Under the pieces are notes generated by a model, which made no database searches, was not told the origin of the DNA, and saw only the letters and a list, made by a program, of their open reading frames with translations. The position numbers and the translations under genes were made by a program. Below are positions 14,450 through 63,259 of a stretch of DNA of 64,000 nt, in pieces; position 1 is the stretch's first letter; each line of letters starts with the position of its first letter. Source of the stretch: an uncultured Planctomycetales bacterium (GTDB lineage: Bacteria > Omnitrophota > Gorgyraeia > Gygaellales > Profunditerraquicolaceae); contig CAYRUB010000006.1 of the NCBI GenBank assembly GCA_964427405.1, positions 15,558 through 79,557 on the forward strand, read 5' to 3'.

Positions 14450-14477
14450 AGTGGGAGTCCTTCTCCGTACAATTTAG

Positions 14478-50245: not shown

Positions 50246-51328
50246 ATGTCAACAGCCATAATATTAGGAGCTGGTTTTTCTAGATGTGCAGGTTTACCAA
50301 TACAGAGTGAATTCTCTAAATTCCTTTTATCTCCAGAACTTTCCCGAACAATTTTAGAGAAAACAATTACAGAGGTTATTAGTGCGTTTATTAGTGATGT
50401 TTTTGGATGGAGACGTGGCAAGCCATTTCCAAGCATGGAAGACTATTTCACTTGTTTAGATTTATCGGCTAACACCGGTCACCACTTAGGAATTCAGTAT
50501 ACTCCTAAAAAATTAAGAGCTATTAGAAGAATGACGATTTATAGAATTTTTCAAATATTGGATTATAACTATCGAAATTCTTCAGAAATAGCGCATTTTT
50601 TAAAGATGGTTTTTAATAAAGGGACTCCAGGGTTTATTGTGCTTAATTGGGATATTGTTTTGGAAAAAGCAATCCATCTTCAACCATTAAGAAATAAAAT
50701 TAACTATGGTTTTGAGTGTTATGAATGGGATACAAAACGTAGGAAAAACTTTGAAGATGACGATATTTTTGTATCAAAGATAAATGGATCTAGCAATTGG
50801 GTGTATTGTGAAAACTGCACAAGCATATTTTATGATCTTAGTACAAAAATCGCTCTTCATAAAATGATGGGTCTTATAAAAGCAGATTTTAGATTATTTA
50901 GAGAAGGATTTACCGATAGACATTTCGATGAAGCGCTGGGGACTTCTCCTCAAAGCCGAAAATGTCATTTTTGCAACAATATGTTAGCAACGCATATTGC
51001 TACCTTTAGTTTTAGAAAATCGTATAGGACATTTGCCTATCCTGCTATTTGGCATAATGCTCAAAGCATATTGTCTAAAAGCAATGAATGGATCTTTGTT
51101 GGTTATTCACTACCAGATGCTGATTTTGAATTTAAACATATATTAAAAGTTTCCGAATTAGCGTTACGGAAAAAAAAGAATCAGCCCCCTCTTAAGATTA
51201 ATGTAGTGGTAAAAAATGATAATGCTGCAAAAAATAGATACCAATCATTTTTTGGTAACCGAATAACCAAAATATGGCAGGGCGGTCTTCAGGAGTTTGT
51301 AAAGAAAAATACAATGAGCAGGAAATAA
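50246..51328 (+). CDS. SIR2-like protein with Zn-ribbon insert, paralog C
   Basis: IILGAGFSRCAGLP N-terminus, NGSSNWVYCENC...CHFC zinc-ribbon, FVGYSLPDADFE C-terminal motif. Same length (360 aa) as paralog B. Confidence 0.6.
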   Translation: MSTAIILGAGFSRCAGLPIQSEFSKFLLSPELSRTILEKTITEVISAFISDVFGWRRGKPFPSMEDYFTCLDLSANTGHHLGIQYTPKKLRAIRRMTIYRIFQILDYNYRNSSEIAHFLKMVFNKGTPGFIVLNWDIVLEKAIHLQPLRNKINYGFECYEWDTKRRKNFEDDDIFVSKINGSSNWVYCENCTSIFYDLSTKIALHKMMGLIKADFRLFREGFTDRHFDEALGTSPQSRKCHFCNNMLATHIATFSFRKSYRTFAYPAIWHNAQSILSKSNEWIFVGYSLPDADFEFKHILKVSELALRKKKNQPPLKINVVVKNDNAAKNRYQSFFGNRITKIWQGGLQEFVKKNTMSRK

Positions 51329-51480
51329 ATACCCTTCCCGTAACATTATTTACCCTGTATACAGAGAGTCTTTCTGCCGCGCCGTATTTCTGGGCGTCCT
51401 TACCGGGGATACCTCTCAAATTTGCCCATAGCTGTTTACAGAGGGGGCTTCCCCTTGTCCAATATTACTGCCCGGCTTAA

Positions 51481-51625
51481 GAAGGAATGCCTAGTGGCAT
51501 AGAAACGCGTTGACAAATCAAATAGTTATGATAAATTAACGTCGTAAGTAGATTAAATCGTCCCGAGTTGTGAAGGGGTAAATCCCGGACGTTAAAAAAA
51601 TAAAACCTTCGTTGGGCTTAATACT
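51481..51625 (+). repeat. Copy 1 of a ~145-bp duplicated promoter/leader module (IR ATGCC-N4-GGCAT, TTGACA-16-TAAATT, terminator-like leader)
   Basis: Near-identical to 52988-53132. Contains an operator-like inverted repeat, a promoter and a GC stem plus T-run just before the gene start. Confidence 0.6.
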
Positions 51626-51654
51626 CGGCGGAGGTTTTTATCTTTTCTAAACAA

Positions 51655-52878
51655 ATGAATATCGGCAATAAATATGAAGATAAATTGGCCGCGTTAGTTG
51701 CTGACCCCTTGCTCATTGATTATGTGCATTTGAGGCCGAAATATAAAAAAGCACTTATTTTGCGCGAATTATGTGATGTTCTTATAGAGTATCAGCCATT
51801 GGCGATCCCTATTCAATTGAAAGTGCAAGGCGTATTAAGGAAAAATTCGGATGATTGGCTAAAAAAAGAGACTGCTAACGCTACAAAACAAATTTTGGGG
51901 GCATTAAGAAGCTTAAATCTTAATCGTGTTGTTATTGAAAATCCTAGGACCGGTATAATTGAATTTCCCCCTAAAACATTAAAGGCAAAACATGGAATAA
52001 TTATTTTGGATTATAAGGGAGATCCTAGTGTTTTGTCGGCAGCTTGTCTTCGTAGAACAAAAGATAAAATACTGCTGCATTATCTAACGTTAGATGATTT
52101 TTCAATACTCTGCCAACATTTAATGACACTACCCGATTTAATGGATTATTTGGATAAAAGGGGAGAGATTCCAGAATGGGCCTTGCCACGTTTGAACGAT
52201 GAGCGCAATGTCTATGCTTACTACCTCACCCATGATAATTATTTCGGTCCTACGGTAAAAATAAACGATTTTGTTGGCGAGTGGGATAGGTTAACTCAAA
52301 AACATGCTAAAGAATATAAAGAAAAGCTTGAGGAGGATAACCAGGCAGAATTATTTAATTTACTTCTCAAACAAATCCACAAAGAAGATCCCGATCAATC
52401 TACTTATTCACCAGATTTTATTCAAAGAGATTCTGAAAGAGAACGTATTTTGAGAAAAGAAGTTACTAGAAAGCTTAGTAGCATAAGACGTCTTTATCGA
52501 AGAGAAATATCAAAGACATTGATAGAAAAATGTCAGAAAGCAAGCACAAGCGAGAAAGGGTTTAACTATTTTTGTTTTATGCCAGAGGGAGATAATACCG
52601 CATATGTCTTTTTGTCTTCTAGACACCCAAGAAAAGAACGCATTACTCAACTTTGTGCAATAGTAAATTGCGTGCTTAATATTCAAGATGTGGATTATGT
52701 CTTGGGTGTAGCTACAGAGAATTTAGGAGTAAAAGGCAGATCAACTGACTTTATAATGATTGACAAAACCATGAAGGATTGCGATCCAAAGGCGATTGAA
52801 GAAAGTAAGCGAATATTTAAAAATATGGAATATCGGCATATATATGATTTTCCTGCAAACAAACAAATTATTATCTAG
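51655..52878 (+). CDS. Hypothetical protein (407 aa)
   Basis: Clean ORF directly downstream of the duplicated leader; no recognisable domain. Confidence 0.35.
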   Translation: MNIGNKYEDKLAALVADPLLIDYVHLRPKYKKALILRELCDVLIEYQPLAIPIQLKVQGVLRKNSDDWLKKETANATKQILGALRSLNLNRVVIENPRTGIIEFPPKTLKAKHGIIILDYKGDPSVLSAACLRRTKDKILLHYLTLDDFSILCQHLMTLPDLMDYLDKRGEIPEWALPRLNDERNVYAYYLTHDNYFGPTVKINDFVGEWDRLTQKHAKEYKEKLEEDNQAELFNLLLKQIHKEDPDQSTYSPDFIQRDSERERILRKEVTRKLSSIRRLYRREISKTLIEKCQKASTSEKGFNYFCFMPEGDNTAYVFLSSRHPRKERITQLCAIVNCVLNIQDVDYVLGVATENLGVKGRSTDFIMIDKTMKDCDPKAIEESKRIFKNMEYRHIYDFPANKQIII

Positions 52879-52987
52879 CATAGGGTTTTAGAAGAAGTGC
52901 CCATCTTTTATGATAAACAAACGAATAGCAAAAGGATTGACCTACGGCATTCCCATAGGGACGCAGTAATATCATTCTTGGGATTGA

Positions 52988-53132
52988 GAAGGAATGCCTA
53001 GTGGCATAGAAACGCGTTGACAAATCAAATAGTTATGATAAATTAACGTCGTAAGTAGATTAAATCGTCCCGAGTTGTGAAGGGGTAAATCCCGGACGTT
53101 AAAAAAGTAAAACCTTCGTTGGCCGTAATGTG
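52988..53132 (+). repeat. Copy 2 of the ~145-bp duplicated promoter/leader module
   Basis: 120 nt essentially identical to 51481-51600, then related terminator-like GC stem + T-run. Confidence 0.6.
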
Positions 53133-53181
53133 GCCGGCGGGGGTTTTTGTTTTTAAGTTGTTTATATAATTTATAAAGAAT

Positions 53182-54426
53182 ATGTCAGATTACAGAAGAA
53201 ATCACTATGTTCCTGATAGATTTCAGCGTCGTTTTTTGCTAAATGACGGGAAAGAGAAGAAGTTTTTCTACCTGGATCTATCTCCTGAAACTGCCTACTC
53301 AAATAAAAGACAGTATGTTCGTAAGTTTTTACATCGATGGGGTCCTCCTAGTTGTTTCTGCGAAGACGATTTGTATACGACTAAGTTTGGCGACTGGGAG
53401 TCAACTGAGATAGAAGAAAGGTTTTTTGGAAAGGTTGATTCTTACGCTCCTTCGGCCATTGAATATTTCGCAAATTTCCAGCATCCTAGTGTTGATGGCA
53501 AGGCGTTTAATAATTTAGTTTCATATATGAGTATACAAAAGTTACGTACGCCTAAGGGGTTAGCTTATTTATCTGAAATATTGCCTAGGTTAGATAAAAA
53601 TCTCATATTGCTTAAGATGCAAGAATTAAGAAATATTTTTTGTGCTTTGTGGACAGAAAGCATATGGAGTATTGTTGATGCTACTAAGGCAGATACAAAG
53701 TTTATTCTTTCTGACCAACCTGTAACGGTATATAACAAGACTTGTTTACCCAATTCGAAGTGGTGTCTTGGTCACCGGGACCCTGACATAGCTCTTTCCG
53801 GTACGCATACATTATTTCCACTAAGCTTAGATAAAGCCCTTATACTTACAAACTTATCTTGGGTACGTAATCCATATGGTCACCCAAGGAAGCCCAGACC
53901 GAATTTTGATCCTTTTAGAGATACAATTTTTAACTTTCTTCACATACAAACAGGTCGATTCCTCACTGATGTAGAGGTAAATGAAATTAATTATGTGATA
54001 AAAACGAGGGCTTACAGGTATATTGCAGCCGCTAAAAAAGAGTGGCTTTATCCAGAGAATAAAATTCCCTCTCAACGTTGGGAAGAGTTAGGGCAGGGAT
54101 ATTTGTTTATGCCAGATCCTCGTTCCGTTACTTTCTCATCAAAAATATTAATCGGTTATGATAATAAAAAAGCAGATGCTTTTGATGAATACGGGAGAAA
54201 ACCCTGGCATCCAGATTATGATAATAAGCCTGAGCGTGATAAAGAATGGGACACATTTCATGCTTTTCAGGGTGAATTTGCACGGGTTTTCGGTCCAAAA
54301 AGGCGCGGTAGGTCTTTTGAGCTAGGAGAATTAAGTAAAGAGGAAGATTCTCCAGATTATCATGCATATCATCTGGGGCTCGAAAAGCATTATAAGCAAA
54401 AGATTACCGGAGAATCCGGTTCTTAA
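53182..54426 (+). CDS. DUF4238-like protein
   Basis: N-terminal RRNHYVPDRFQRRF matches the HYVPQFYLRxF signature of DUF4238. 414 aa. Confidence 0.4.
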   Translation: MSDYRRNHYVPDRFQRRFLLNDGKEKKFFYLDLSPETAYSNKRQYVRKFLHRWGPPSCFCEDDLYTTKFGDWESTEIEERFFGKVDSYAPSAIEYFANFQHPSVDGKAFNNLVSYMSIQKLRTPKGLAYLSEILPRLDKNLILLKMQELRNIFCALWTESIWSIVDATKADTKFILSDQPVTVYNKTCLPNSKWCLGHRDPDIALSGTHTLFPLSLDKALILTNLSWVRNPYGHPRKPRPNFDPFRDTIFNFLHIQTGRFLTDVEVNEINYVIKTRAYRYIAAAKKEWLYPENKIPSQRWEELGQGYLFMPDPRSVTFSSKILIGYDNKKADAFDEYGRKPWHPDYDNKPERDKEWDTFHAFQGEFARVFGPKRRGRSFELGELSKEEDSPDYHAYHLGLEKHYKQKITGESGS

Positions 54427-54430
54427 TAGA

Positions 54431-55204
54431 ATGAAAAACAGCTTAAATCTTCATCCGCTGGTAGAAGGAACAAGAAAAAGTATCGGTGCCAAACCCTATT
54501 TAGACAAGGGCTGTATTATTGGCAGGTACTCTGGCCTTGACATTCGTGTTAGTCTCAATAGCCTGGATCGAGCACTAAGTATTATGGATACTTTATTCAA
54601 GGCTTTTGAGAAGAAAGGGATTGTGGTCGGTATCAAGAAGGATGACTATAAATACATAACAAGCGTGAATGTTTTTGGAGAAACTTTCGCTATTGATATG
54701 TATGAGAAGATTAATAATATTAAGAAAGGCCAGGATCAGTATGGCTACAATCAGTATGACTATATTCCTAACGGAAACCTAGTTCTACGAATTAAAGATA
54801 CGCCTTATGGCGTTCGCAGTGAATGGAAAGATGGTGAAAGAAAAAAACTAGAGGCGTGTTTAGATAGTTTCATTAATGGACTAATTTTAGCGGCAGAAAA
54901 GCAGAAAGCAAACAGACTTAAAAGAGAGCAAGAAAAACGTGAATGGGAAGAGAATGAGCGTAGAGGAGAAGAAGAACAGAAAATAAGGCAACAGGAACAA
55001 GCGCTTATTGATATGTTGGAAAAAGAAGCAATGGGGTGGCATAAAAGCAAGATAATCCGGTCTTATATTGAAGCCGCCACTACTGCGCATATCCAAAAGA
55101 ATGGCAAGGTTGAGTCTGGAAGCGAATTTGATAAATGGAAAACATGGGCTGGCCAACAGGCAGACCGATTAGATCCTTTAAAAGAAATGTTTGTTAATTC
55201 TTAG
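54431..55204 (+). CDS. Hypothetical coiled-coil protein
   Basis: Start chosen at MKNSLNLHP to avoid overlap. Long charged helix KANRLKREQEKREWEENERRGEEEQKIRQQEQ. Confidence 0.35.
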   Translation: MKNSLNLHPLVEGTRKSIGAKPYLDKGCIIGRYSGLDIRVSLNSLDRALSIMDTLFKAFEKKGIVVGIKKDDYKYITSVNVFGETFAIDMYEKINNIKKGQDQYGYNQYDYIPNGNLVLRIKDTPYGVRSEWKDGERKKLEACLDSFINGLILAAEKQKANRLKREQEKREWEENERRGEEEQKIRQQEQALIDMLEKEAMGWHKSKIIRSYIEAATTAHIQKNGKVESGSEFDKWKTWAGQQADRLDPLKEMFVNS

Positions 55205-55209
55205 GGGGC

Positions 55210-55944
55210 ATGGTGGAAGGTGTATGTAGATTTTGTGGCCAGAGTAAAAAACTGATAAAAGCTCATGTTGTTCCTGAGAAGTTTTTCAGTTTAGACGTGC
55301 AAAATCCTCTTCTTATGATTGCCGCTGATAAGCCTTATGAAACTAGATGTCCTATAGGAATATATGATGAAAATATTCTTTGTGCGGATTGCGACAATAA
55401 ATTAGGGGTTTATGACGAGGAAGCACAAAAGCTATTTTTGACAAATATAGGCATCTACAAACATAAAGATAAGGATTTGCATGAAATACCTCCAAGCGCA
55501 TATAACTATGAAAAGCTAAGATTATTTTTTATTTCATTGATTTGGAGAGCTTCCATTTCTTCAATGAATGCTTTCAGAAATGTGAGCCTAGGGCAAAAGT
55601 TCGAAAAGATGGCATTAGATATATTAAAGGATCCAGCATTAGACAGAGAAGATCTATTTTCTGTACTCATATTTAAACTTAAAGAGAATCCAGATATTCC
55701 TTTAGAAAAAGTTTATATTGAACCGTGGTCTTTCCGCTGTGAAGGAGCCAGGATGTATTCTTTTGTATTCGCGGGCTATAATATTCATATAAAAGTAGAT
55801 AAGCGCAAATTAAACCAACCGATTGCAGATTTCTTTTTGAAATCAAATAGCAACTTATTTATATTATCTCAGAATTCAGAACAAGCACTATCCCTTATGG
55901 CTAGAATTACTACTCAACACAACCAACTGAAATCGAATAATTGA
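55210..55944 (+). CDS. Putative HNH-like endonuclease domain protein
   Basis: CRFCGQSKKLIKAHVVPE ... CADCDNKLG (CxxC...H...CxxC) at the N-terminus. Confidence 0.35.
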   Translation: MVEGVCRFCGQSKKLIKAHVVPEKFFSLDVQNPLLMIAADKPYETRCPIGIYDENILCADCDNKLGVYDEEAQKLFLTNIGIYKHKDKDLHEIPPSAYNYEKLRLFFISLIWRASISSMNAFRNVSLGQKFEKMALDILKDPALDREDLFSVLIFKLKENPDIPLEKVYIEPWSFRCEGARMYSFVFAGYNIHIKVDKRKLNQPIADFFLKSNSNLFILSQNSEQALSLMARITTQHNQLKSNN

Positions 55945-55967
55945 TTTAAAGATGTTTATTCTTCAAT

Positions 55968-56260
55968 GTCCGGGTCGAGAGAGGCGGACATTCGTATCTC
56001 TTAATGCCTCAAGAAGTTAGATAATTTCTGGTCAGAAAATACCGGACAAATAGGACAAAATTAGCGAGGAATTACCTCTCTAAATCCAGAATATTCTTGA
56101 TATATTGAGGTATTGCGCATATAATTAGGCTAATAAATTCAGAGAGGTTTCTACTCTGCTCATGAGAGTGGGACCCCATATTTTCCTACGCAATAAGCTA
56201 CAAAAAATCCTCGATGGGGTAACTTGTCGAGGATTTTTATCTTGGGGTTGCTAATGATAG
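55968..56260 (+). repeat. Copy 1 of ~250-bp repeat family: IR TGTCCG-N12-CGGACA, tandem CGGACAA direct repeats, TTGATA-17-TATAAT promoter, ~110-nt transcript ending at intrinsic terminator
   Basis: Shared with 60300-60586 and, diverged, 63040-63230. Promoter at 56097-56125; terminator hairpin ATCCTCGAT...GTCGAGGAT + T-run at 56207-56241. Confidence 0.6.
56132..56241 (+). ncRNA. Candidate ~110-nt sRNA/leader transcribed from the repeat-borne consensus promoter
   Basis: Predicted TSS 7 nt after TATAAT; conserved 5' AGAGAGGTTTC...GAGAGTGGGACCCCA; ends at intrinsic terminator. Paralogous unit at 60467-60586. Confidence 0.3.
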
Positions 56261-56269
56261 TGGTACAAT

Positions 56270-57322
56270 ATGTCTTTGGAGATATCTAGCATGCAAAAAA
56301 CAAAGATGCCGGGGAATAGAATTTACCCCTACTTAATAAGCGTAGGGTTTGTTTTAATCATGACTTTTTTGGGTGAGTTTGTTAAAAGAAAGCTTGAGCC
56401 GACAAATATCGTGATGTTTTATCTTTTGGCTGTAGTAATAGTTGCCATTCGTTGGGGGCAGGGGCCAGCGATCGTAACCTCAATATTGAGTGTTCTGGCT
56501 TTTGATTTCTTTTTAGTTCCGCCATATCTCACCCTTAATGTTCATGATTTTGAGTATCTTTTTACCTTTGGGGCTTTTCTGGTAGTTGGTCTTATTGTGA
56601 GTACGCTTACTTCAAAAGTAAGAGCACAAATTATCCAACGCCAGACTGAGAAACTTCATTGCGCGCTTTTGAACTCAATTTCCCATGATTTAAAAACACC
56701 GCTTGTATCGATCACTGGGGCATTGAGCACTATTTTGGATAATACATCAAAGCTTAGCCAACAGCAAAAGAATGGGCTTTTGGAAACGGCCCGCGGTGAA
56801 TCTGAAAGATTGAATCACATAGTAAATAATATTCTGGATATGACTAGGACAGAATCCGGCGTATTACGGATTTCTAAAAAGCCATGTGATTTAAGGGATT
56901 TTATAGGAGCTTGTTTTGAACAGCTAAAAGATAAGATAGGCAGTCGAAACATAAAAATAAATATTCCAAAGGAGATGCCTGAAGTAAACGTAGATTTTCC
57001 GTGTATGCTCAAGGCGTTCTTAAATGTTATTGATAATGCTTTAAAGTATTCCCCTGATGGTTCGGAGATTGAAATCGGAGCTTCTTGTATCGACGGAAAG
57101 GCGCGTATTTTTGTGCAAGATTATGGTTATGGAATTCCCAAGGAAGACTTGGGACGTATTTTTAACAAGTTCTACCGGGTCCAGTGCGCTCAAAATATAT
57201 TGGGAACTGGTTTGGGATTAAGTATTTCAAAAAATATTATTGAGGCTCATGGCGGCTATATTAGCGCAGAAAGTGTTCTTGGTAAAGGTACCACGTTTAT
57301 TATAGAATTTCCGCTAGAGTAA
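56270..57322 (+). CDS. Sensor histidine kinase, KdpD-like C-terminal portion (TM domain + HisKA + HATPase_c); lacks N-terminal KdpD/Usp sensor domains
   Basis: Four TM helices; H-box SISHDLKTPL; N, G1, G2 boxes (IDNALKYS, QDYGYGIP, GTGLGLSI). Confidence 0.75.
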   Translation: MSLEISSMQKTKMPGNRIYPYLISVGFVLIMTFLGEFVKRKLEPTNIVMFYLLAVVIVAIRWGQGPAIVTSILSVLAFDFFLVPPYLTLNVHDFEYLFTFGAFLVVGLIVSTLTSKVRAQIIQRQTEKLHCALLNSISHDLKTPLVSITGALSTILDNTSKLSQQQKNGLLETARGESERLNHIVNNILDMTRTESGVLRISKKPCDLRDFIGACFEQLKDKIGSRNIKINIPKEMPEVNVDFPCMLKAFLNVIDNALKYSPDGSEIEIGASCIDGKARIFVQDYGYGIPKEDLGRIFNKFYRVQCAQNILGTGLGLSISKNIIEAHGGYISAESVLGKGTTFIIEFPLE

Positions 57323-57329
57323 AAGTATA

Positions 57330-58031
57330 ATGGCAGAACAAAACAATTTAAGAATTCTGGTTGTTGACGATGAAAAATCCATACGTAGTTTTCTTAAGAC
57401 ATCTCTTTCGGCGCACGGTTACGTTGTTTTTGAAGCAGCAAAAGGTAAAGAAGCCCTAACAGAGTCGGTTAGTGTTCATCCGGATGTTATTATTCTTGAC
57501 TTAGGACTTCCTGATATGGATGGAAGAGAGGTCATTGCAAATATCCGTAAACGGACAAAAACCCCGATAATCATTTTATCAGTAAGGGATGATTCGCTGG
57601 AGAAGATCGCTGCGCTTGATGCCGGAGCGGATGACTATCTTACCAAACCTTTTTCTGTCGGAGAGTTGTTGGCCCGCTTGAAGGCGGTGATGAGGCGTCT
57701 TTTGCCTCTAGAAAAGGACCAAATCCTACGAACAGGCAAGCTTATGATGGATATTACTAGTCGTCGGGTTACTGTTGAAGATAACCAGATTGATTTATCT
57801 CCTACTGAATATGACACTCTCAAGCTTCTTCTTTTAAACTCTGGGAAGGTGCTTACTCATAAACAAATTCTGCGTGAAATTTGGGATAAAACAGAAGATT
57901 ATGAGGGTATTTTACATCTTTTACGCGTAACGATGAGTAATCTGCGCAGCAAAATTGAACCTAACCCGGATCGCCCTATGTACATTCTTACGGAGCCGGG
58001 CGTGGGCTACCGCATGAGGTCTGATGATTAA
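57330..58031 (+). CDS. OmpR/KdpE-family response regulator
   Basis: REC domain (ILVVDDE...ILDLGLPDMDG) plus winged-helix trans_reg_C (LSPTEYDTLKLL...GVGYRM). Confidence 0.85.
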   Translation: MAEQNNLRILVVDDEKSIRSFLKTSLSAHGYVVFEAAKGKEALTESVSVHPDVIILDLGLPDMDGREVIANIRKRTKTPIIILSVRDDSLEKIAALDAGADDYLTKPFSVGELLARLKAVMRRLLPLEKDQILRTGKLMMDITSRRVTVEDNQIDLSPTEYDTLKLLLLNSGKVLTHKQILREIWDKTEDYEGILHLLRVTMSNLRSKIEPNPDRPMYILTEPGVGYRMRSDD

Positions 58032-58282
58032 ATTCTCGTTTTGACCTTTTTTTGACTTGCCTTCCTTGCCCGTCAAGCGTATCGTAATCCAATAGAATAA
58101 ATACAAAAATAAGTTGATTTTACACAGTGCCAGAGTGTTTCATTCTCTGGTTTTTTGTTAAATATTATGAAGAAAATAGCTATTTTTTATACTGTTACTC
58201 TAGGAATATTCTGGGAAGCGGTGTATGTAATGGTAATTATCGGCATAGGTTGGCTATTTGTATTAGCATTTCGGTATATACG

Positions 58283-59788
58283 ATGATACTTAGACCTCAA
58301 GTAAATGATATTAAGAACATCGGTTATTATCTGGGAAGAATAATCCTCGGTATCGGCCTGACCATGTTTTTACCGTTTATTACGGGGCTGGTTTTATTTA
58401 GAGAGCCTAATCCTGCTTTGGATTTCTTGATCAGCGCTAATATTGCTATATTTATCGGTTTGGCTTTAAGTTGGCTGTGTAAAACAAATAAGGAGCTAAA
58501 TTCTGGTCAGGCAATGGTTGTTATTGCTCTTTCATGGCTGGCCGCGATGGCCCTTAGTGCTATCCCGTTATTATTAAGTGGTCACTATAAGTCATTTCTT
58601 GATGCTTGTTTTGAAACCATGTCGGGTTTTACCACCACTGGGCTGACTCTTGTGCAAGATTTGGATCACCTTTCCCAGAGCCATAATTTATGGCGTCATT
58701 TAGGGCCTTTTCTGGGAGGGCAGGGAATCGCTATTATTGCGATTTCATTCTTGGTCAAGGGCACCAGCGGGACATTTAATCTGTATCTTGGGGAAGGGCG
58801 TGATGAAAAATTAGTCCCTAATGTTATCAACACGGCGCGGTTTATTTGGGTGATTAGCATAGTGTACTTAATCCTAGGGACCATTGTGTTAGGTTTGGTA
58901 GGGATCTCTATTGGATTGAAACCTCAAAGCGCATTCTTTCACGGTGCCTGTATTTTTATGGCTGGATTTGATACCGCAGGTTTCTCCCCGCAATCACCAA
59001 ACATTCTTTATTATCACAGCCTGATCTATGAAATTGTTATAATTTTCTTTATGGTCATCGGCTCATTTAACTTTAATTTGCATTATCAAATCTGGAAGGG
59101 GAATTTTAAAGAAATTTGGAAGAATATCGAAACGCGGACTTTCTTGTTTGTGATTATGATTGTTACTTTGATTACCCTGGCTGGCTTGAGGCGCTTGGGT
59201 GTTTATTCGGATGGAATGATACTTTTTCGCAAGGGTTTTTTTCAACTTGTCTCCGGACAAACTACAACCGGTTATATGACAATATATGCTCAGCAGTTTA
59301 TTAAGGAGTGGGGAGATTTAGCGTTGAGCGGGATAATTCTTTCTATGGCGCTGGGAGGTTGCGCTTGTTCTACGGCAGGGGGAATTAAAATGTTACGCGT
59401 AGGAATTATCTATAAGGCATTCAGGCAGGATATAAAAGCAATGATGCTTTCGCCAAGTGCTATCGTGGTGCAGAAATTTCATCATATAAAAACGATGTTT
59501 ATTGAAGATAAGCAGGTACGAGCAGTTTTGATTGTTACCTTAGGGTATCTTTTTCTTTACGGATTAGGTACTTTAGTAGGGGTAGGATTGGGATATCCTT
59601 TTTTGGAATCTCTCTTTGAGTCAACTTCTGCGGCTGCCAATGTTGGGCTTTCCTGTGGGATAACTGATACAAGTATGCCGGCAATATTAAAAGTGACCTA
59701 TATAATAGAAATGTGGGCAGGAAGACTGGAGTTAATGTCGGTTTTTGCGTTATTTGGTTTTTTTGTAGCGTATGTGAAAGGTAGATAA
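58283..59788 (+). CDS. TrkH/KtrB family potassium transporter
   Basis: Multi-TM protein with repeated pore-loop signatures (MSGFTTTG, GFDTAG, QTTTGY, SAAANVGLS). Start chosen at MILRPQV; the track's extended N-terminus lies in intergenic DNA. Confidence 0.8.
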   Translation: MILRPQVNDIKNIGYYLGRIILGIGLTMFLPFITGLVLFREPNPALDFLISANIAIFIGLALSWLCKTNKELNSGQAMVVIALSWLAAMALSAIPLLLSGHYKSFLDACFETMSGFTTTGLTLVQDLDHLSQSHNLWRHLGPFLGGQGIAIIAISFLVKGTSGTFNLYLGEGRDEKLVPNVINTARFIWVISIVYLILGTIVLGLVGISIGLKPQSAFFHGACIFMAGFDTAGFSPQSPNILYYHSLIYEIVIIFFMVIGSFNFNLHYQIWKGNFKEIWKNIETRTFLFVIMIVTLITLAGLRRLGVYSDGMILFRKGFFQLVSGQTTTGYMTIYAQQFIKEWGDLALSGIILSMALGGCACSTAGGIKMLRVGIIYKAFRQDIKAMMLSPSAIVVQKFHHIKTMFIEDKQVRAVLIVTLGYLFLYGLGTLVGVGLGYPFLESLFESTSAAANVGLSCGITDTSMPAILKVTYIIEMWAGRLELMSVFALFGFFVAYVKGR

Positions 59789-59790
59789 AA

Positions 59791-60276
59791 GTGAGAAGTT
59801 TTTTCTTATTATTGGTGTTGTGCTTGGTGCCGACTGTTTCTAGTTCTAACTGCTATGCTCAGACACCCACGAGTTTAGAATTGATAAACAATGCCAAACA
59901 GTATGACGGTAAAACTGTTAACTATAGAGGAGAGGTCATAGGAGAAGTAATGGTCCGCGGAGAGTTCGCTTGGCTACATGTGAATGATGGTATTATTGCA
60001 ATCGGTATTTGGGTTCCAAAGACAATGGTTCAAGATATTCTCTATGCCGGGAATTATCATAAAAAAGGAGATATCGTAGAAGTTTTCGGGACGTTTCATC
60101 GAAGCTGTTTGGAGCATGGGGGAGATTTAGATATTCATGCCTCTGAAATAAATAAAATAACTCCGGGAAGTTTGGTTATTCAGCCCATCAGTAGAAAGAA
60201 AGTTTATATCGGAGTCTCGTCTTTAGTACTCGTTTTGTTATTCTATGCATTAAAGAAATTTTTTCAGCGCAGATAA
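59791..60276 (+). CDS. Hypothetical secreted/membrane-anchored protein (161 aa)
   Basis: N-terminal signal peptide, C-terminal hydrophobic helix; GTG start overlapping the trkH stop. Confidence 0.35.
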   Translation: MRSFFLLLVLCLVPTVSSSNCYAQTPTSLELINNAKQYDGKTVNYRGEVIGEVMVRGEFAWLHVNDGIIAIGIWVPKTMVQDILYAGNYHKKGDIVEVFGTFHRSCLEHGGDLDIHASEINKITPGSLVIQPISRKKVYIGVSSLVLVLLFYALKKFFQRR

Positions 60277-60299
60277 CGTTAATATCTGGATTTAATTAT

Positions 60300-60586
60300 A
60301 AATGTCGTCACTCAAGGGCGGACATTTTGTATTCATTTGTCTCTCTGATAGTTGCGTCATTTCTAGCCAAAAAATACCGGACAAAACGGACAAGTTGGCG
60401 AGGAATAGCCTTCTCTAAAACCAGAATATTCTTGATATATTAAGGTATTACGCATATAATTAGGCTAATAATTTTAGAGAGGTTTCCCTTTGTGGAATAC
60501 GAGAGGGACCCCAGTAATATCATTCTCCTCGCTGTATTGGAGAGTTTAAGGCCTATGATCGCAATAGCGGTTGTAGGCCTTTTTAT
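60300..60586 (+). repeat. Copy 2 of the ~250-bp IR/DR/promoter repeat family, including a predicted ~118-nt transcript (60467-60586) ending at terminator AAGGCCTA...TAGGCC+T-run
   Basis: ATGTCG-N12-GGACAT inverted repeat, CGGACAAAACGGACAAG direct repeats, TTGATA-17-TATAAT promoter at 60432-60460, terminator at 60548-60586. Confidence 0.6.
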
Positions 60587-60611
60587 CTGGCGATGTCCGT
60601 AGGGCTTAGGA
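60580..60611. repeat. Right copy of ~32-bp direct repeat; candidate island boundary
   Basis: TTTTTATCTGGCGATGTCCGTAGGGCTTAGGA versus TTTTTATCTGGCGATGTCCCTAGGGTTTAGGG at 24874. Confidence 0.5.
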
Positions 60612-60790
60612 CATTGTATTTATTAGCCATATATCGAAACCTTCCGCACTACATCAAATTCATCTATATCTGTAAACGGAGAGGTCTTCCACTTGTCGAA
60701 TATTACTGCCCTCCTTACCTGGGATACTTCTTGACAAAAAAAGTGTTTTATTATATTATTAGCATATGCCAATAACTAAAAGGAAACTAT

Positions 60791-61087
60791 ATGACTAGAC
60801 CTTGTAGATGTAGAAGAATAAGATGTAGTCCTGACACGAATTACTTTAAGCCTCGGGGCATCCCTTTGGATATGCTTGAAGAGGTTAATCTTACCCTGGA
60901 TGAATTAGAGGCGGTTAGGCTTGCGGATTTAGAAGGTTTATATCAGGAGGATGGTGCTAGGAAAATGGATATTTCCCGGCAGACATTTGGTAATATCATA
61001 AATTCAGCTCACAGGAAAATAGCGGATGTTCTTTTAAACGCTAAAGCATTAAAGATAGAAGGCGGAAAGGTTAAAAAGGTAGGCTAA
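60791..61087 (+). CDS. DUF134 (UPF0251) family predicted DNA-binding protein
   Basis: CRCRRIRCSPDTNYFKPRGIP N-terminus typical of DUF134. Promoter TTGACA-17-TATTAT upstream. Confidence 0.6.
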   Translation: MTRPCRCRRIRCSPDTNYFKPRGIPLDMLEEVNLTLDELEAVRLADLEGLYQEDGARKMDISRQTFGNIINSAHRKIADVLLNAKALKIEGGKVKKVG

Positions 61088-61684
61088 ATGAATAATCTAA
61101 TAAAACAGGATCAAGATAGGTTAAAGCTTTTCAAGAAGCATGGTTATGATATCCCTAAAGCCAGAAATTTTATTCTTGCCAAAGCTGGGCCTATTCAGGG
61201 TCGAGTTTTGGAAGTGGGTACTGGCAGAGGACATACGGCGGTAGCTCTAGCAAGAAAAGGGATAAAACTTATTTCGATTGATTTAGACAAGAAAGCTCAA
61301 AGTGCAGCCAAGTTAAACCTTAAGAAAATGAAGTTAAATAAATATGTTGTTTTTAGGGTAATGAACGCCGAAAAATTAATTTATCCGGATAATTATTTTG
61401 ATTTTGTGATTTCGGTAAATTTTATTCACCATGCTGATTATCCCGGTAAATGCATTAGGGAGATGATAAGAGTTACTAAGGAAAAACTGGTAATTGTAGA
61501 TATTAATCAAAAAGGTCAGCGTGTTATGGAAAAAGTCCATGCGTTAGATGGGCATAGTCATGCGTCGTCTAAAATGTCCATGTTGGTTGTAAAAGAATAC
61601 TTACGTAAAACCGGATTGGTGGTTAAGGTTTATAGAGATGTATGTCAGACTGTTATCGTGGCTAAGAAAGGAGTAGTAAAGTGA
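61088..61684 (+). CDS. Class I SAM-dependent methyltransferase
   Basis: Motif I VLEVGTGRGHTAV; motif II/III spacing typical of small-molecule MTases. Confidence 0.65.
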   Translation: MNNLIKQDQDRLKLFKKHGYDIPKARNFILAKAGPIQGRVLEVGTGRGHTAVALARKGIKLISIDLDKKAQSAAKLNLKKMKLNKYVVFRVMNAEKLIYPDNYFDFVISVNFIHHADYPGKCIREMIRVTKEKLVIVDINQKGQRVMEKVHALDGHSHASSKMSMLVVKEYLRKTGLVVKVYRDVCQTVIVAKKGVVK

Positions 61685-62046
61685 AAGTATGTATTCCAAC
61701 AGAAACAAATGAAGGAAAGAACGCAAAGGTTTATGGTCATTTCGGTAGCGCACCATATTTTACCATTGTTGACACAGAGAAAGACGCTGTAGAGATTATT
61801 GACAATGCGAACCAGCATCATGCGCATGGGATGTGTCAACCGATGAACGCGTTAATGGGGAAGTCGATTGATGCTGTGGTTACCGGTGGAATGGGCGCCC
61901 GGGCGGTTCAAGGACTTAATCAAGGCGGAATCAAGGCTTATCGGGCTATTCCGGGGACAGTTGCTGATATTGTTAGTCAATTTACCAAAGGTGGGCTTGA
62001 GGAAATAACCGTCGAGAATGCCTGCTCTCAACATGGATGTCATTAA
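61681..62046 (+). CDS. Dinitrogenase FeMo-cofactor-binding (NifX/NifB C-terminal-like) domain protein
   Basis: GHFGSAPYFTIVD...VVTGGMGARA pattern of pfam02579-like proteins. Confidence 0.55.
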   Translation: MKVCIPTETNEGKNAKVYGHFGSAPYFTIVDTEKDAVEIIDNANQHHAHGMCQPMNALMGKSIDAVVTGGMGARAVQGLNQGGIKAYRAIPGTVADIVSQFTKGGLEEITVENACSQHGCH

Positions 62047-62059
62047 AGAGGAGGACATA

Positions 62060-62380
62060 ATGAAGATAGGGGTTATAATCTCCAGTAATGATACCGAGAC
62101 TTGTTGGAATGCTCTACGATACGGCAATTTTTGCCTTGGGCAGAAGGATGAAGTAAAGGTATTTTTGACCGGCAAAGGCGTCGAATACCAGAATATTAGC
62201 ACGGAAAAATTCAACACGATTGAGCAGGCGGAAGAATTGCTTCAGTCTGGTGGTAAAATACTGGCTTGCGGAACGTGCATTAAATCGCGGAATCAGGAAG
62301 GTACGGAAATGTGTCCGATTAATACGATGAAGGATATGTATGAAATTATTAAAGAGAGCGACAAGGTTGTTACCTTTTAG
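62060..62380 (+). CDS. DsrE/DsrF-like family protein
   Basis: MKIGVIISSND ... ILACGTC pattern. AGGAGG RBS before ATG at 62060. Confidence 0.45.
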   Translation: MKIGVIISSNDTETCWNALRYGNFCLGQKDEVKVFLTGKGVEYQNISTEKFNTIEQAEELLQSGGKILACGTCIKSRNQEGTEMCPINTMKDMYEIIKESDKVVTF

Positions 62381-62389
62381 CAAGAGGAT

Positions 62390-62581
62390 ATGAATAAAAC
62401 AGTTTTGATCAATGAAAATCTTTGCATTGGCTGCGCAAAGTGCGTTGAATTATGTCCCAAAAATATCTTGTATGTAGATAAGACAAGCAATAAATGTAAG
62501 GTTTCAGATGAAACTAAATGCGATAAGCTTGCTGGTTGTCAACGAGTCTGCCCTGTAAAAGCAATCAACATAATCGAATAA
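62390..62581 (+). CDS. 4Fe-4S ferredoxin (63 aa)
   Basis: CIGCAKCVELCP and C...CQRVCP cluster motifs. Confidence 0.7.
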   Translation: MNKTVLINENLCIGCAKCVELCPKNILYVDKTSNKCKVSDETKCDKLAGCQRVCPVKAINIIE

Positions 62582-62617
62582 TCCCCTACAAAAATAGCAG
62601 AATGAATTCTATGGGAT

Positions 62618-63070
62618 ATGTGGGAATCATACAGAAATATTCTTAGGCGCTACCCTAAAATTCCCCTATCTGAAGAAAGACGTTTGATTCTCAAGGCTCA
62701 AAGAGGATCCAAGAAAAGCAAGGATGAACTTGTTCTCCGTCATATCAGTTTCCTAATCTTTAGAATTCGCAAAATAGCATTTTCTTCCTTGCTTTGGCCA
62801 TTTGGAGAGGATTTATTAGCAGAAGCCATTCTTATCGTTTATAAAAAAATTGAAAGTTATGACCTTAATTACTGCGATAAGAAGGGGAATCCTAACCCGG
62901 TTAAATTTACCTCTTACATTTGGAAACGAATTGATGGTTTCATAATTGATTCATTAAAGAAAGAGCTTAACGAATCAAATTATTACGATAGATACAGCGG
63001 GTATGCCATCAAAAATGGGGATTCATCGTCTATGTCCGGGTCCGGAGAGGTGGACAATTCTATCTCTTGA
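62618..63070 (+). CDS. Sigma-70 family fragment (region 1.2/2-like), apparently truncated
   Basis: LSEERRLILKAQRGSKKSKDELVLRHISFLIFRI resembles sigma70 region 1.2-2.1. Only 150 aa; the C-terminus is encoded by the repeat element. Confidence 0.35.
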   Translation: MWESYRNILRRYPKIPLSEERRLILKAQRGSKKSKDELVLRHISFLIFRIRKIAFSSLLWPFGEDLLAEAILIVYKKIESYDLNYCDKKGNPNPVKFTSYIWKRIDGFIIDSLKKELNESNYYDRYSGYAIKNGDSSSMSGSGEVDNSIS

Positions 63071-63230
63071 CTTATCAGAGAGTTATAAATTACAAGTCAA
63101 TAATGACCGGACAAGGCGGACATTCCCGCTCTAAATCCACAATATCCTTGATATATTGAGTTATCAAGCCTATAATTACTTGTATAAATAGAGAGGGGTT
63201 TCTCTTTGGTTTATACGAGTGGATTATTAT
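63040..63230 (+). repeat. Copy 3 (diverged) of the IR/DR/promoter repeat family; promoter TTGATA-17-TATAAT at 63148-63176
   Basis: TGTCCG-N14-GACAA inverted repeat, CGGACAAGGCGGACAT direct repeats, consensus promoter, conserved AGAGAGGGGTTTC leader. Confidence 0.5.
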
Positions 63231-63259
63231 TTTAATAAAAATACAAGTTATAGAAAGAG

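What the first reader, a model, noticed from the sequence alone, without database searches (positions are those of the whole stretch)
56132..56241. Two paralogous ~110-120-nt promoter-to-terminator units (candidate sRNAs) carried by the repeat family
In copies 1 and 2 the consensus promoter is followed after 110-118 nt by a strong intrinsic terminator. The terminators are 56207-56241 (ATCCTCGAT...GTCGAGGAT + T5) and 60548-60586 (AAGGCCTA...TAGGCC + T5). The predicted transcripts share a 5' AGAGAGGTTTC...GAGAG(T)GGGACCCCA core. The second unit's terminator T-run is the first base of the island-boundary direct repeat. These could be sRNAs or attenuating leaders for the downstream kdpD-like operon.
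Basis: inference. Interest (0 to 1): 0.5.

Follow-up and report, generated by a model that had tools for sequence, protein, structure and literature searches.

The report
Reused promoter-leader cassette driving short RNAs
The two units are real promoter-to-terminator transcription units, but what they share is a roughly 240-bp promoter-plus-leader cassette reused at well over a hundred loci in Omnitrophota bacteria; only the second unit belongs to a conserved, structured, multi-copy small-RNA family.

Summary
Near-consensus promoters (TTGATA-17-TATAAT) at 56097-56125 and 60432-60460 are followed after about 107 and 117 nt by strong intrinsic terminators, and both transcripts begin with the same AGAGAGG + hairpin leader. 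A third copy (63148-63176) runs straight into an ORF.

The shared core is not sRNA paralogy. It is a cassette: upstream hairpin, GGACAA boxes, promoter, then a 47-nt leader. I found 139 unique copies in Omnitrophota genomes and metagenomes, co-oriented with very diverse downstream genes. About one third are followed by a terminator.

Unit 2 belongs to a conserved RNA of about 115 nt (P1, invariant linker, P2, terminator) with strong covariation. About 40 hits span the whole model. It is multi-copy in some genomes and sometimes lacks a promoter, sitting in a 3' UTR. Rfam has no match.

Unit 1 is only leader plus terminator. The KdpD-like kinase operon downstream has its own conserved extended -10 promoter, and orthologous loci carry different upstream units or none. 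The attenuating-leader idea is therefore poorly supported.

A sigma-region-2-only orphan protein (62618-63070) is often encoded immediately upstream of the cassette. No transcript has been observed; all transcription claims are inferred from sequence.

The parts
55965..55992 (+). Cassette copy 1: upstream hairpin AATGTCCG...CGGACATT. It is a remnant of the 3' end of the p150 gene and carries an inverted pair of the GGACA motif.
   Evidence: inverted repeat I6, 8 nt, 100% complementary; (conserved in the 65-copy profile).
56042..56057 (+). Cassette copy 1: direct repeat CCGGACAAATAGGACA (GGACAA boxes, 9-bp period).
   Evidence: 3 exact matches in the window, one per copy; scores 9 in the conservation profile; also kept in the diverged cassette of L133.
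56063..56085 (+). GCGAGGAATTACCTCTCTAAAT. Its CCTCTCT is the left arm of an inverted repeat that brackets the promoter; the right arm is AGAGAGG at 56141-56147.
   Evidence: I5: 12 nt, 92% complementary, 51 nt apart; present in about 90% of 128 copies, fixed 66-bp spacing, no covariation.
56097..56125 (+). Unit 1 promoter TTGATA-17-TATAAT; start site inferred near 56132.
   Evidence: 11 of 12 matches; conserved in more than 100 copies.
56132..56178 (+). Common 5' leader of unit 1: single-stranded AGAGAGG (56141-56147, Shine-Dalgarno-like) and hairpin P1 (56146-56176). Here an A-U pair replaces the usual C.A mismatch.
   Evidence: 68 bits, E 3.9e-13.
56203..56238 (+). Unit 1 intrinsic terminator (stem AAAAATCCTCGA/TCGAGGATTTTT, T-run 56234-56238).
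   Evidence: I4, 100% complementary. The ortholog L039 has a terminator of unrelated sequence at the same place.
56261..56269 (+). The kinase operon's own extended -10 promoter, TGGTACAAT.
   Evidence: TGnTAnAAT lies about 21-22 nt before the conserved ATG in the window, L039, L083, L014 and L129. Read directly from the sequences.
56291..57322 (+). Histidine kinase (DUF4118-HisKA-HATPase, resembling the C-terminal half of KdpD). It is the first gene of a kinase / OmpR-type regulator / TrkH / 161-aa operon (to 60276).
   Evidence: The start at 56291 is inferred from orthologs.
60300..60327 (+). Cassette copy 2: upstream hairpin AAATGTCG...CGGACATTTTG, terminator-like, just after the 161-aa ORF.
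60377..60392 (+). Cassette copy 2: GGACAA boxes (CCGGACAAAACGGACA).
60432..60460 (+). Unit 2 promoter TTGATA-17-TATAAT; start site inferred near 60467.
60467..60583 (+). Unit 2 RNA of about 117 nt: leader with P1 (60481-60512), invariant linker CCCCAGUAAUAUC, P2 (60522-60545), terminator (60548-60581) and T-run.
   Evidence: 130.4 bits, E 3.9e-30.
60731..60759 (+). Separate promoter TTGACA-17-TATTAT for the DUF134 operon, followed by a palindrome.
   Evidence: conserved upstream of DUF134 genes in L090 and L076.
63107..63238 (+). Cassette copy 3: GGACAA box 63107-63122, promoter 63148-63176, leader with a degenerate P1. There is no terminator; it runs into the 124-aa secreted-protein ORF (63260-63634).
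   Evidence: 39.9 bits.
62618..63070 (+). p150, a 150-aa protein that resembles sigma-70 region 2 only. Its last codons form the upstream hairpin of cassette copy 3.
   Evidence: linkage to the cassette.

Best explanation
Both units are short, terminated transcription units driven by copies of a lineage-wide Omnitrophota promoter-leader cassette of about 240 bp.

The cassette contains, in order:
- a hairpin that ends the upstream gene;
- GGACAA direct repeats;
- a near-consensus sigma-70-type promoter bracketed by the inverted repeat CCTCTCT/AGAGAGG;
- a 47-nt leader: a single-stranded Shine-Dalgarno-like AGAGAGG followed by hairpin P1.

The cassette is a reusable expression module. Whatever lies behind it is transcribed with the same 5' end. 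In most copies that is an mRNA; in about a third it is a short RNA ended by an intrinsic terminator.

Unit 2 is a member of a conserved, multi-copy ('sibling') small-RNA family: P1, invariant single-stranded linker CCCCAGUAAUAUC, P2, terminator. The RNA body is the functional part, because it also occurs without the promoter in 3' UTRs.

Unit 1 produces an RNA of about 107 nt consisting only of the common leader, a short linker and a terminator. That terminator insulates the kinase operon, which is started by its own promoter.

Shown: the sequence elements, their conservation, their orientation relative to genes, and RNA covariation for unit 2.

Inferred: that the promoters fire, the start sites, termination efficiency, and the leader's role. 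I favour a 5' stabiliser or protein/30S-binding site, by analogy with STAB-SD and 5' stem-loops.
For: Promoters and terminators.

Cassette distribution:
- 8 genome loci, 7 of them Omnitrophota MAGs.
- 139 unique copies. 107 have a same-strand ORF of at least 60 aa starting within 450 nt (median 80 nt). 23 of the 32 without one lie at contig ends.
- The downstream proteins hit 111 Pfam families among 107 proteins.

Terminators follow 29 of 89 copies within 300 nt.

Unit-2 family:
- Structure statistics as given above.
- About 40 full-model hits above 72 bits, including 3 within 20 kb of L129.
- Promoterless copies directly after stop codons in L129, L057, L072 and L093 keep the sequence from the predicted +1 onward.

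Leader P1: 83.6% of cells are paired on 97 sequences. A conserved C.A mismatch is replaced by A-U, U-A or C-G in 14 of them.

Diverged by-catch copies and L133 keep promoter hexamers with different spacers.

The kinase operon's own promoter is conserved with or without a cassette upstream.

GAGGT, which occurs inside AGAGAGGT, is the pentamer most enriched upstream of start codons in this window. STAB-SD precedent: PMC4113751.
Against: - There are no expression data; promoter activity, start sites and termination are predictions.
- P1 is supported mainly by conservation. Covariation on 97 sequences is modest: 86 of 500 shuffles reach the observed number of covarying pairs.
- In the window-versus-L039 orthologous pair, the cassette core (75% identity) is no better conserved than third codon positions of the kinase gene (76%). 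It is better conserved than the rest of the spacer (50%).
- Some diverged copies keep the flanking CCTCTCT and AGAGAGG-P1 elements but have lost the -35 box. The conserved unit is therefore more than a promoter.
- Unit 1 has only one positional ortholog (L039). It could be a decaying or silenced cassette.
- Copy 3 has a degenerate P1 although its gene is 98% identical to the L093 ortholog, whose P1 is intact.
Confidence: 0.6

Rival explanations
1. Conditional attenuators. The cassette promoter is the main promoter of the downstream operons (kinase-regulator-TrkH; DUF134 operon). The terminators are regulated, either by a factor that binds the leader or P1 (processive or hairpin-dependent antitermination, as with lambda N/nut, put RNA, or Q at PR'-tR') or by a ligand.
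For: - A strong promoter, a conserved early-transcribed hairpin, a terminator and then co-oriented genes has the same geometry as known antitermination leaders.
- Termination at the unit-1 position is kept in L039 with a different hairpin.
- Unit-2-type RNAs lie 250-450 nt upstream of DUF134 genes in the window, L090, L076, L118, L062 and L064.
- A sigma-region-2-like protein is often encoded next to the cassette.
Against: - Both downstream operons have their own conserved promoters after the terminator (56261-56269; 60731-60759).
- Kinase-operon orthologs have a different upstream unit or none.
- Most cassette copies have no terminator to regulate.
- In the unit-2 family the terminator stem varies freely (12 of 15 pairs have compensatory changes) while everything upstream is nearly invariant. 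No conserved antiterminator pairing is therefore possible.
- The ACCCCAU/AUGGGGU complementarity in unit 1 is not conserved in L039.
- There is no Rfam riboswitch hit, even at E up to 5.
Confidence: 0.15
2. DNA-level repeat without an RNA function of its own. The cassette and its relatives (D3-type units, the common terminator, the P1-P2 body) are pieces of a mosaic intergenic repeat system, like BIME/REP or MITE/Correia elements. They spread by recombination or transposition, and any promoter or terminator activity is a side effect.
For: - Mosaic behaviour: the same pieces occur in different combinations.
- An 86-nt P1-linker-P2 body is present in L093 and absent from the window, exactly between AAGGCT direct repeats.
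- A 7-12-bp inverted repeat brackets the promoter at fixed spacing and shows no covariation, as a protein-binding end or operator would.
- Tandem D3 units share these ends with a short interior and no promoter.
- Fragments and vestiges are present in the window.
- The two canonical window copies are 93% identical to each other, yet the cassette core of copy 1 is only 75% identical to that of its positional ortholog.
Against: - The orientation bias toward downstream genes is strong, with short and regular distances to start codons.
- Promoter hexamers persist in diverged copies whose spacers differ.
- Compensatory changes in P2 and the terminator show selection on RNA structure.
- No transposase is associated, no target-site duplications were seen, and conservation extends well beyond the inverted repeat on both sides.
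- No copy was found in viral contigs.
Confidence: 0.15
3. Dedicated transcription system. The cassette is the cognate promoter of p150, the sigma-region-2-only protein encoded next to it. p150 would be a minimal sigma in the manner of T4 gp55, or one half of a split sigma. The cassette-driven genes and sRNAs would then form its regulon.
For: - p150 matches sigma region 2 weakly but consistently: Pfam Sigma70_r2 E 9.5e-4; NCBIfam SigY 2.7e-4, ECF 0.007, FliA 0.03.
- Foldseek hits are almost all sigma factors, including gp55.
- The FTSYIWKRI motif resembles the -10-melting segment of region 2.3 (read).
- There is no region 4.
- The cassette follows p150 within about 50-105 nt in 17 of 17 complete cases among cassette-selected loci, and in 3 of 7 p150-anchored loci plus one diverged version.
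- Cassette copies elsewhere carry a remnant of the p150 3' end.
- Conservation is contiguous from about -70 to +47, which is unusual for a plain sigma-70 promoter.
Against: - The hexamers and 17-bp spacing are textbook housekeeping sigma-70, and a region-2-only protein could not read the -35 box.
- 3 of 7 independently chosen p150 genes are followed by a different conserved sequence.
- The p150 model has low confidence (pLDDT 59), and all sequence and fold E-values are above the usual thresholds.
Confidence: 0.1

Closest known systems
Putative mobile promoters / promoter reuse (Matus-Garcia, Nijveen & van Passel 2012, PMC3488235)
   Same: Highly similar promoter-bearing DNA (at least 80% identity over 50-100 nt) sits upstream of non-homologous genes, both within one genome and across genomes. 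The window copies are 93% and 79% identical over 75 nt, upstream of a kinase operon, an sRNA/DUF134 operon and a secreted-protein gene.
   Different: This unit is much longer (about 240 bp). It includes an upstream hairpin, GGACAA boxes and a 47-nt structured transcribed leader. It also drives short terminated RNAs and is linked to a particular neighbouring gene, p150.
Multi-copy 'sibling' sRNAs with a common promoter type and intrinsic terminators (for example Qrr1-5, LhrC1-5, streptococcal csRNAs); from general knowledge
   Same: Unit 2 is about 115 nt and has a promoter of its own, stem-loops, an invariant single-stranded stretch that could act as a seed, and a Rho-independent terminator. 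There are several copies per genome.
   Different: No targets or chaperone are known. The 5' third of the RNA is shared with many mRNAs. Some copies lack a promoter and sit in 3' UTRs. The family is not in Rfam 15.
5' mRNA stabilisers: STAB-SD of cry3A and 5' stem-loops (PMC4113751, citing Agaisse & Lereclus 1996 and Mathy et al. 2007)
   Same: A Shine-Dalgarno-like sequence near the 5' end is not followed by a start codon, and a stem-loop follows it. GAGGT is the pentamer most enriched upstream of start codons in this window.
   Different: The presence of a 5'-3' exonuclease (RNase J) in this organism was not examined. No stability effect has been shown. The element also heads non-coding RNAs.
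Lambda PR'-6S RNA-tR' with Q, and N/nut or put antitermination leaders; from general knowledge
   Same: A strong constitutive promoter gives a short terminated RNA of about 100-200 nt just upstream of co-oriented genes. The promoter spacer and the early transcribed region are conserved.
   Different: The downstream operons have their own promoters. Most cassette copies have no terminator. No Q- or N-like factor was identified, and no copy occurs in viral contigs.
Mosaic intergenic repeats (E. coli BIME/REP; Neisseria Correia elements, which can carry promoters); from general knowledge
   Same: Short conserved intergenic modules combine in different orders. An inverted repeat brackets a promoter-bearing segment. 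Indels occur between short direct repeats.
   Different: No target-site duplications or transposase were found. Orientation is strictly polar toward genes. Selection on RNA structure is evident in the unit-2 body.
T4 gp55 and other minimal or split sigma factors (PDB 7d7c chain F was among the fold hits)
   Same: p150 is a small protein with only a region-2-like domain.
   Different: Membership in the sigma-70 family is not established at accepted thresholds. No partner protein, promoter specificity or RNAP binding is known.

Membership tests
Independently transcribed bacterial sRNA gene | Own promoter directly upstream | tested here: met
   TTGATA-17-TATAAT, 11 of 12 matches, upstream of both units. 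This is a consensus match only; activity was not measured.
Independently transcribed bacterial sRNA gene | Rho-independent terminator at the 3' end | tested here: met
   In the unit-2 family the terminator stem has 12 of 15 pairs with compensatory changes.
Independently transcribed bacterial sRNA gene | Sequence and structure conserved across genomes independently of neighbouring genes | tested here: met
   Met for unit 2: about 40 full-model hits in varied contexts. For unit 1 the result is inconclusive: there is one positional ortholog (L039), in which only the cassette part and a short linker are conserved.
Independently transcribed bacterial sRNA gene | A discrete transcript is detected | not testable with these tools
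   No transcriptome data were available.
Riboswitch or attenuator leader of the downstream operon | Lies in the 5' UTR of the regulated gene with no promoter in between | tested here: not met
   Conserved promoters lie between terminator and gene: TGGTACAAT at 56261-56269 (also in L039, L083, L014 and L129) and TTGACA-17-TATTAT at 60731-60759.
Riboswitch or attenuator leader of the downstream operon | Conserved alternative (antiterminator) pairing with the terminator | tested here: not met
   Terminator sequences vary while the upstream RNA is nearly invariant. The complementarity in unit 1 is not conserved in L039.
Riboswitch or attenuator leader of the downstream operon | Consistent association with one gene family or pathway | tested here: not met
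   111 Pfam families among 107 downstream proteins. The unit-2 class shows only a partial association with DUF134 genes.
Any Rfam 15 family | Covariance-model score at or near the gathering threshold | tested here: not met
   No hit at 55900-63300 at gathering thresholds. At E up to 5 only two chance hits appear (MIR2934 and RFPL3-AS1_2), neither on a unit.
Putative mobile promoter (PMP) | At least 80% identity over 50-100 nt upstream of non-homologous genes within a genome | tested here: met
   The definition is taken from the abstract of PMC3488235. Copies 1 and 2 are 93% identical over 75 nt; copy 3 is 79%. The downstream genes are unrelated.
MITE / Correia-type element | Terminal inverted repeats at the element ends plus target-site duplication | tested here: inconclusive
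   An internal inverted repeat ACCTCTCTAAAT/ATTCAGAGAGGT brackets the promoter, but conservation extends about 110 nt upstream and 30 nt downstream of it. No target-site duplication was seen. One clean indel between AAGGCT repeats concerns the P1-P2 body.
STAB-SD-type 5' stabiliser | Shine-Dalgarno-like sequence near the 5' end that does not start translation | tested here: met
   AGAGAGG lies at about +10 to +16. No start codon is conserved at the right distance. GAGGT is enriched 9-fold upstream of start codons.
STAB-SD-type 5' stabiliser | Protects the transcript from 5'-3' decay | not testable with these tools
   Requires half-life measurements.
Sigma-70 family (for p150) | Region 2 recognised at the family threshold | tested here: inconclusive
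   Pfam gives 19.4 bits against a cut-off of 24. NCBIfam hits are far below their cut-offs. The PDB profile search gives E 0.44 to sigma-F. Foldseek hits are sigma factors with probability up to 0.99 but E at least 0.07, on a model with pLDDT 59.
Sigma-70 family (for p150) | Region 4 (-35 recognition) present | tested here: not met
   The protein ends about 30 residues after the region-2.4-like helix, and no region 4 hit was found.

The most novel reading that the evidence does not exclude
The cassette is the cis element of a dedicated expression system. Under this reading p150, the region-2-only sigma-like orphan encoded beside the master copy, would act on cassette promoters or their conserved early-transcribed region, as a minimal or split sigma or as an elongation or antitermination factor. 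The leader-only RNAs (unit 1) and the sibling sRNAs (unit 2) would then be outputs or decoys of one regulon that also covers stress and ion-homeostasis genes.
Probability: 0.12. Interest if true: 0.85.

Novelty: new variant of a known kind. Interest (0 to 1): 0.55.

Why it matters
Omnitrophota are uncultured, so almost nothing is known about how they control transcription. This cassette gives three concrete handles.

- It is a promoter-leader module that can be recognised by sequence and used to annotate transcription starts in this lineage's genomes.
- It points to a new multi-copy structured sRNA family, not in Rfam, with an invariant single-stranded stretch suited to target prediction.
- It points to an orphan sigma-region-2-only protein that is physically linked to the module.

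The case also illustrates promoter reuse in which a structured 5' leader travels with the promoter. It warns against inferring sRNA paralogy from shared 5' sequences.

Tried and rejected
- **Rfam.** At gathering thresholds over the whole window, only tmRNA and tRNAs were found. At E up to 5 over 55900-63300, there were only two chance hits, neither on a unit.
- **Exact-sequence look-up of the kinase protein.** It is not on record, so the source genome itself could not be retrieved.
- **Viral contigs scanned for the cassette.** None found, which argues against a phage late-promoter origin.
- **Long-range RNA helix CCUCUCU/AGAGAGG enclosing the promoter.** The motif is present in about 90% of copies, but pairing equals what independent columns would give. 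I rejected it as an RNA helix and kept it as a DNA-level feature.
- **Small ORF in unit 1.** The ATG-initiated 31-codon ORF (ATGAGAGTGGGA...) is not conserved in other copies; L001 has ATG immediately followed by TGA.
- **CtsR-like operator for the GGACAA boxes.** Considered from memory, but both the period (9 versus 10) and the third base differ. The distance from the boxes to the promoter also varies through insertions of about 60 nt, so direct control of the promoter from a fixed position is unlikely.
- **Sequence searches of p150 against PDB.** Only insignificant hits.
- **Conserved unit-1 class beyond L039.** L012 and L094 share only a short TTTTCC...AATAGC stretch and have different downstream genes.
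- **'Island-boundary direct repeat'.** It is one member of a widespread repeat family.
Full report
**1. Observation.**
Three direct repeats (56077-56151, 60412-60486, 63128-63202; 93% and 79% identity to the first) each contain TTGATA-17-TATAAT, matching 11 of 12 consensus positions.
- In copies 1 and 2 the promoter is followed by strong intrinsic terminators. Unit 1 has perfect 12-nt arms at 56203-56214 and 56227-56238 plus T5. Unit 2 has a 15-pair stem at 60548-60581 plus T5.
- The predicted RNAs, about 107 and 117 nt, fold far better than shuffles (z -3.96 and -5.04).
- Both begin AAUAA(A/U)UU(C/U)AGAGAGGUUUC, then a hairpin, then GGGACCCCA.
- Copy 3 has no terminator and runs into a 124-aa ORF.
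- nhmmer and a covariance model find exactly these three copies in the 64 kb.
- One detail is not confirmed. The direct repeat near unit 2 starts about 70 nt after the T-run and belongs to another common repeat family.

**2. The repeat family.**
- A pattern spanning the GGACAA boxes and the -35 region hit eight species-representative genomes. Seven are Omnitrophota MAGs; the eighth looks like a chance match inside coding sequence.
- Together these give 139 unique copies.
- The conserved unit is about 240 bp and has five parts:
  - a hairpin ATGTCCG...CGGACAT;
  - CCGGACAAnnnGGACAA;
  - GCGAGGAA-n4-CCTCTCTAAA;
  - the promoter;
  - a leader AGAGAGG plus hairpin P1.
- A site between the GGACAA boxes and GCGAGG tolerates insertions of about 60 nt.
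- Downstream of P1 the copies diverge into many unrelated sequences.

**3. Evidence that it acts as a promoter.**
- 107 of the 139 copies have a same-strand ORF of at least 60 aa starting within 450 nt of P1 (median 80 nt). 23 of the 32 exceptions lie at contig ends.
- The downstream proteins are very diverse: 111 Pfam families among 107 proteins. The most frequent are DUF134, GIY-YIG, superoxide dismutase, response regulators, TPR and cold-shock proteins.
- In a distant version (L133) and in several by-catch copies, -35 and -10 hexamers persist at 16-17 bp spacing while the spacer differs.
- A few copies keep the flanking elements but have lost the -35 box, so the conserved unit is more than a promoter.
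- A 7-12-bp inverted repeat, ACCTCTCTAAAT/ATTnAGAGAGGT, brackets the promoter at a fixed 66-bp spacing. It is present in about 90% of copies and shows no covariation. I therefore read it as a DNA-level feature (operator or element end), not an RNA helix.

**4. The leader.**
- On 97 sequences P1 is 83.6% paired, against 37-65% in slid registers, but it is mostly invariant.
- A conserved C.A mismatch is replaced by A-U, U-A or C-G in 14 sequences, window copy 1 among them.
- AGAGAGG is nearly invariant and single-stranded in the predicted folds.
- GAGGT is the pentamer most enriched upstream of start codons in this window, so AGAGAGGU is Shine-Dalgarno-like.
- No start codon is conserved behind it.
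- This resembles STAB-SD and stem-loop 5' stabilisers (PMC4113751). That role is an inference.

**5. Unit 2.**
- Eighteen full-length homologs align from the predicted start site to the T-run.
- For the structure P1 + P2 + terminator, 90.4% of cells pair against 40-54% in slid controls. Seventeen pairs change on both sides, and 0 of 500 shuffles reach any measure.
- The linker CCCCAGUAAUAUC is almost invariant.
- A covariance model finds about 40 hits above 72 bits that span the whole model, the window copy among them at 130 bits. There are three within 20 kb of L129, and two each in L083, L060 and L072.
- Several copies lack the promoter and start right after a stop codon (L129, L057, L072, L093). 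They still keep the sequence from about the predicted +1. The RNA body, not the promoter, therefore defines this family.
- Rfam 15 has nothing similar.
- The downstream DUF134 operon has its own promoter and palindrome at 60731-60759, conserved in other loci.

**6. Unit 1.**
- The unit-2 model matches it only through the leader and the terminator (65 bits). There is no P2.
- The kinase (DUF4118-HisKA-HATPase), OmpR-type regulator, TrkH and 161-aa genes form the downstream operon.
- Five orthologous loci can be compared:
  - the window and L039 have a cassette, P1, a partly similar linker and a terminator; the two terminator sequences are unrelated;
  - L083 has a cassette plus a unit-2-type RNA;
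  - L129 has a promoterless unit-2-type RNA behind a DUF502 gene;
  - L014 has only the terminator of an upstream gene.
- All five have TGnTAnAAT about 21-22 nt before the conserved ATG, which is 56291 in the window.
- The operon therefore does not depend on the cassette. The terminator is best read as insulation.
- Between the window and L039, identity is 75% in the cassette core, 76% at third codon positions of the kinase, and 50% in the remaining spacer.
- The ACCCCAU/AUGGGGU complementarity that could oppose the terminator is not conserved.

**7. The neighbouring gene p150 (62618-63070).**
- Homology evidence is weak but consistent:
  - It hits sigma-70 region 2 models, all below their thresholds.
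  - A low-confidence model (pLDDT 59) finds almost only sigma factors by Foldseek, T4 gp55 among them.
  - There is no region 4.
- The family is narrow:
  - 775 homologs at 70% identity or more come from Omnitrophota-type samples.
  - Only 166 clusters at 50% identity appear among 1.84 billion representatives, most of them fragments.
- Its last codons (MSGxxExDxxIS) are the cassette's upstream hairpin. Cassette copies elsewhere keep that remnant.
- Linkage to the cassette is frequent but not universal:
  - The cassette follows p150 in 17 of 17 complete cases among cassette-selected loci.
  - Among seven loci chosen through the protein alone, three have the cassette, one has a diverged version, and three have a different conserved sequence.
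- p150 sits at the 3' end of different ion or metal operons: TrkH, ArsP/CDF, NikR-CbiMNQO, Pst-PhoU and DUF134-NifX-DsrE-ferredoxin.
- A functional link is possible but unproven.

**8. Wider context.**
The cassette is one piece of a mosaic of conserved intergenic modules in these genomes.
- D3-type units occur at 51350-51480 and 60640-60735 in the window, and in tandem behind unit-2-type RNAs elsewhere. They share the CCTCTC and AGAGAGG ends and the 5' half of the leader.
- A common terminator, AAGGCTATTGATC...GGTCAnTAGCCTTTTT, also ends protein genes.
- L093 has an 86-nt P1-P2 body that the window lacks, exactly between AAGGCT repeats.
- The D3 core AATATTACTG is complementary to the invariant linker of the unit-2 RNA. 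This 9-mer occurs four times in the window against 0.66 expected, and all four occurrences lie in these elements. I cannot explain this.

**9. Verdict.**
Unit 2 is a good sRNA candidate from a new multi-copy family. Unit 1 is a leader-only terminated transcript from the same reused cassette.
- The attenuating-leader reading is disfavoured.
- The closest known concepts are reused or mobile promoters (PMC3488235), sibling sRNAs and 5' stabilisers. What is unusual is that one promoter-plus-structured-leader module serves mRNAs and sRNAs alike, and that it is linked to a region-2-only sigma-like orphan.
- All statements about transcription are inferences from sequence.

Noticed in passing
window 51480-51645 and 52985-53150: A second pair of promoter-to-terminator units. 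Each has TTGACA-16-TGATAAATT (51510-51537 / 53017-53044), about 60 nt of RNA, and a strong terminator (51602-51638 / 53109-53147, differing by compensatory changes). They lie upstream of two paralogous ORFs (51655-52878; 53182-54426, DUF4238). There is no Rfam hit and no copy in any fetched locus.
   Followed up: partly
window 51350-51480 and 60640-60735: D3-type repeat units (CTGTnTACAGAGAGG...CCCCTTGTCGAATATTACTGCCCG...GGGGATACCTCTCAAATT). The family is present in 23 fetched loci, often in tandem after unit-2-type RNAs, and is related to the 5' half of the cassette leader.
   Followed up: partly
window 51462-51470, 60700-60708 (+) versus 60512-60520, 52964-52972 (-): The D3 core ATATTACTG is the exact complement of the invariant single-stranded linker CAGUAAUAU of the unit-2 RNA. 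It occurs 4 times against 0.66 expected, always inside these elements. The meaning is unknown: a target site, cis pairing on read-through, or common descent.
   Followed up: partly
window 52950-52985: An isolated fragment of a unit-2-type RNA (GGGACGCAGTAATATCATTCTT: the 3' arm of P1, the linker and the start of P2) lies just upstream of the second D1 unit.
   Followed up: no
window 63664-63721; L093 8328-8450: After the 124-aa ORF there is a vestigial cassette piece (TTGATATATTAAG, 63664-63676) and the common terminator (63686-63721). The close ortholog L093 has an additional 86-nt P1-linker-P2 body inserted exactly between AAGGCT direct repeats.
   Followed up: partly
window 62618-63070: p150 is a narrow orphan family restricted to Omnitrophota-type samples that resembles sigma-70 region 2 only (counts in section 7 of the full report). 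It lies at the 3' end of varied ion or metal transport operons in different genomes.
   Followed up: partly
L135 4432-4650, L136 4396-4600, L137 4453-4650: In three p150-anchored loci the cassette is replaced by another conserved non-coding stretch (AATTAAGAnAGTCTGAGCnCATGAAAnTGG...TTTTTGTCTAAATGGTGGGTTTTGGGTGG...TGCGGTAGCCTTCG...GGCTACCGCA). It may be another structured RNA.
   Followed up: no
window 56270-56293: The longest ORF of the kinase starts at 56270, but orthologs indicate that the real start is the ATG at 56291. That start is preceded by GGAG and by the extended -10 element at 56261-56269.
   Followed up: yes
window 60760-60790; L090, L076, L118, L062, L064: DUF134 genes carry their own TTGACA promoter followed by a palindrome (for example TTAGCATATGCCAA, or CTTGTTATGAACATGTGTTCATAACAAG in other loci). 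This is probably an autoregulatory operator.
   Followed up: no
window 16111-16517: A tmRNA gene with an unusually long predicted tag (ANTQVSRLGTFVTPSFTARPMFVPAFGLN). tRNA genes lie at 14477, 23209, 23401 and 24730.
   Followed up: no
window 50246-55944: The genes upstream of cassette copy 1 look like accessory or defence-type genes: a weak SIR2_2 hit, two DUF4238 paralogs, and two ORFs (280 and 244 aa) with no significant family match.
   Followed up: no
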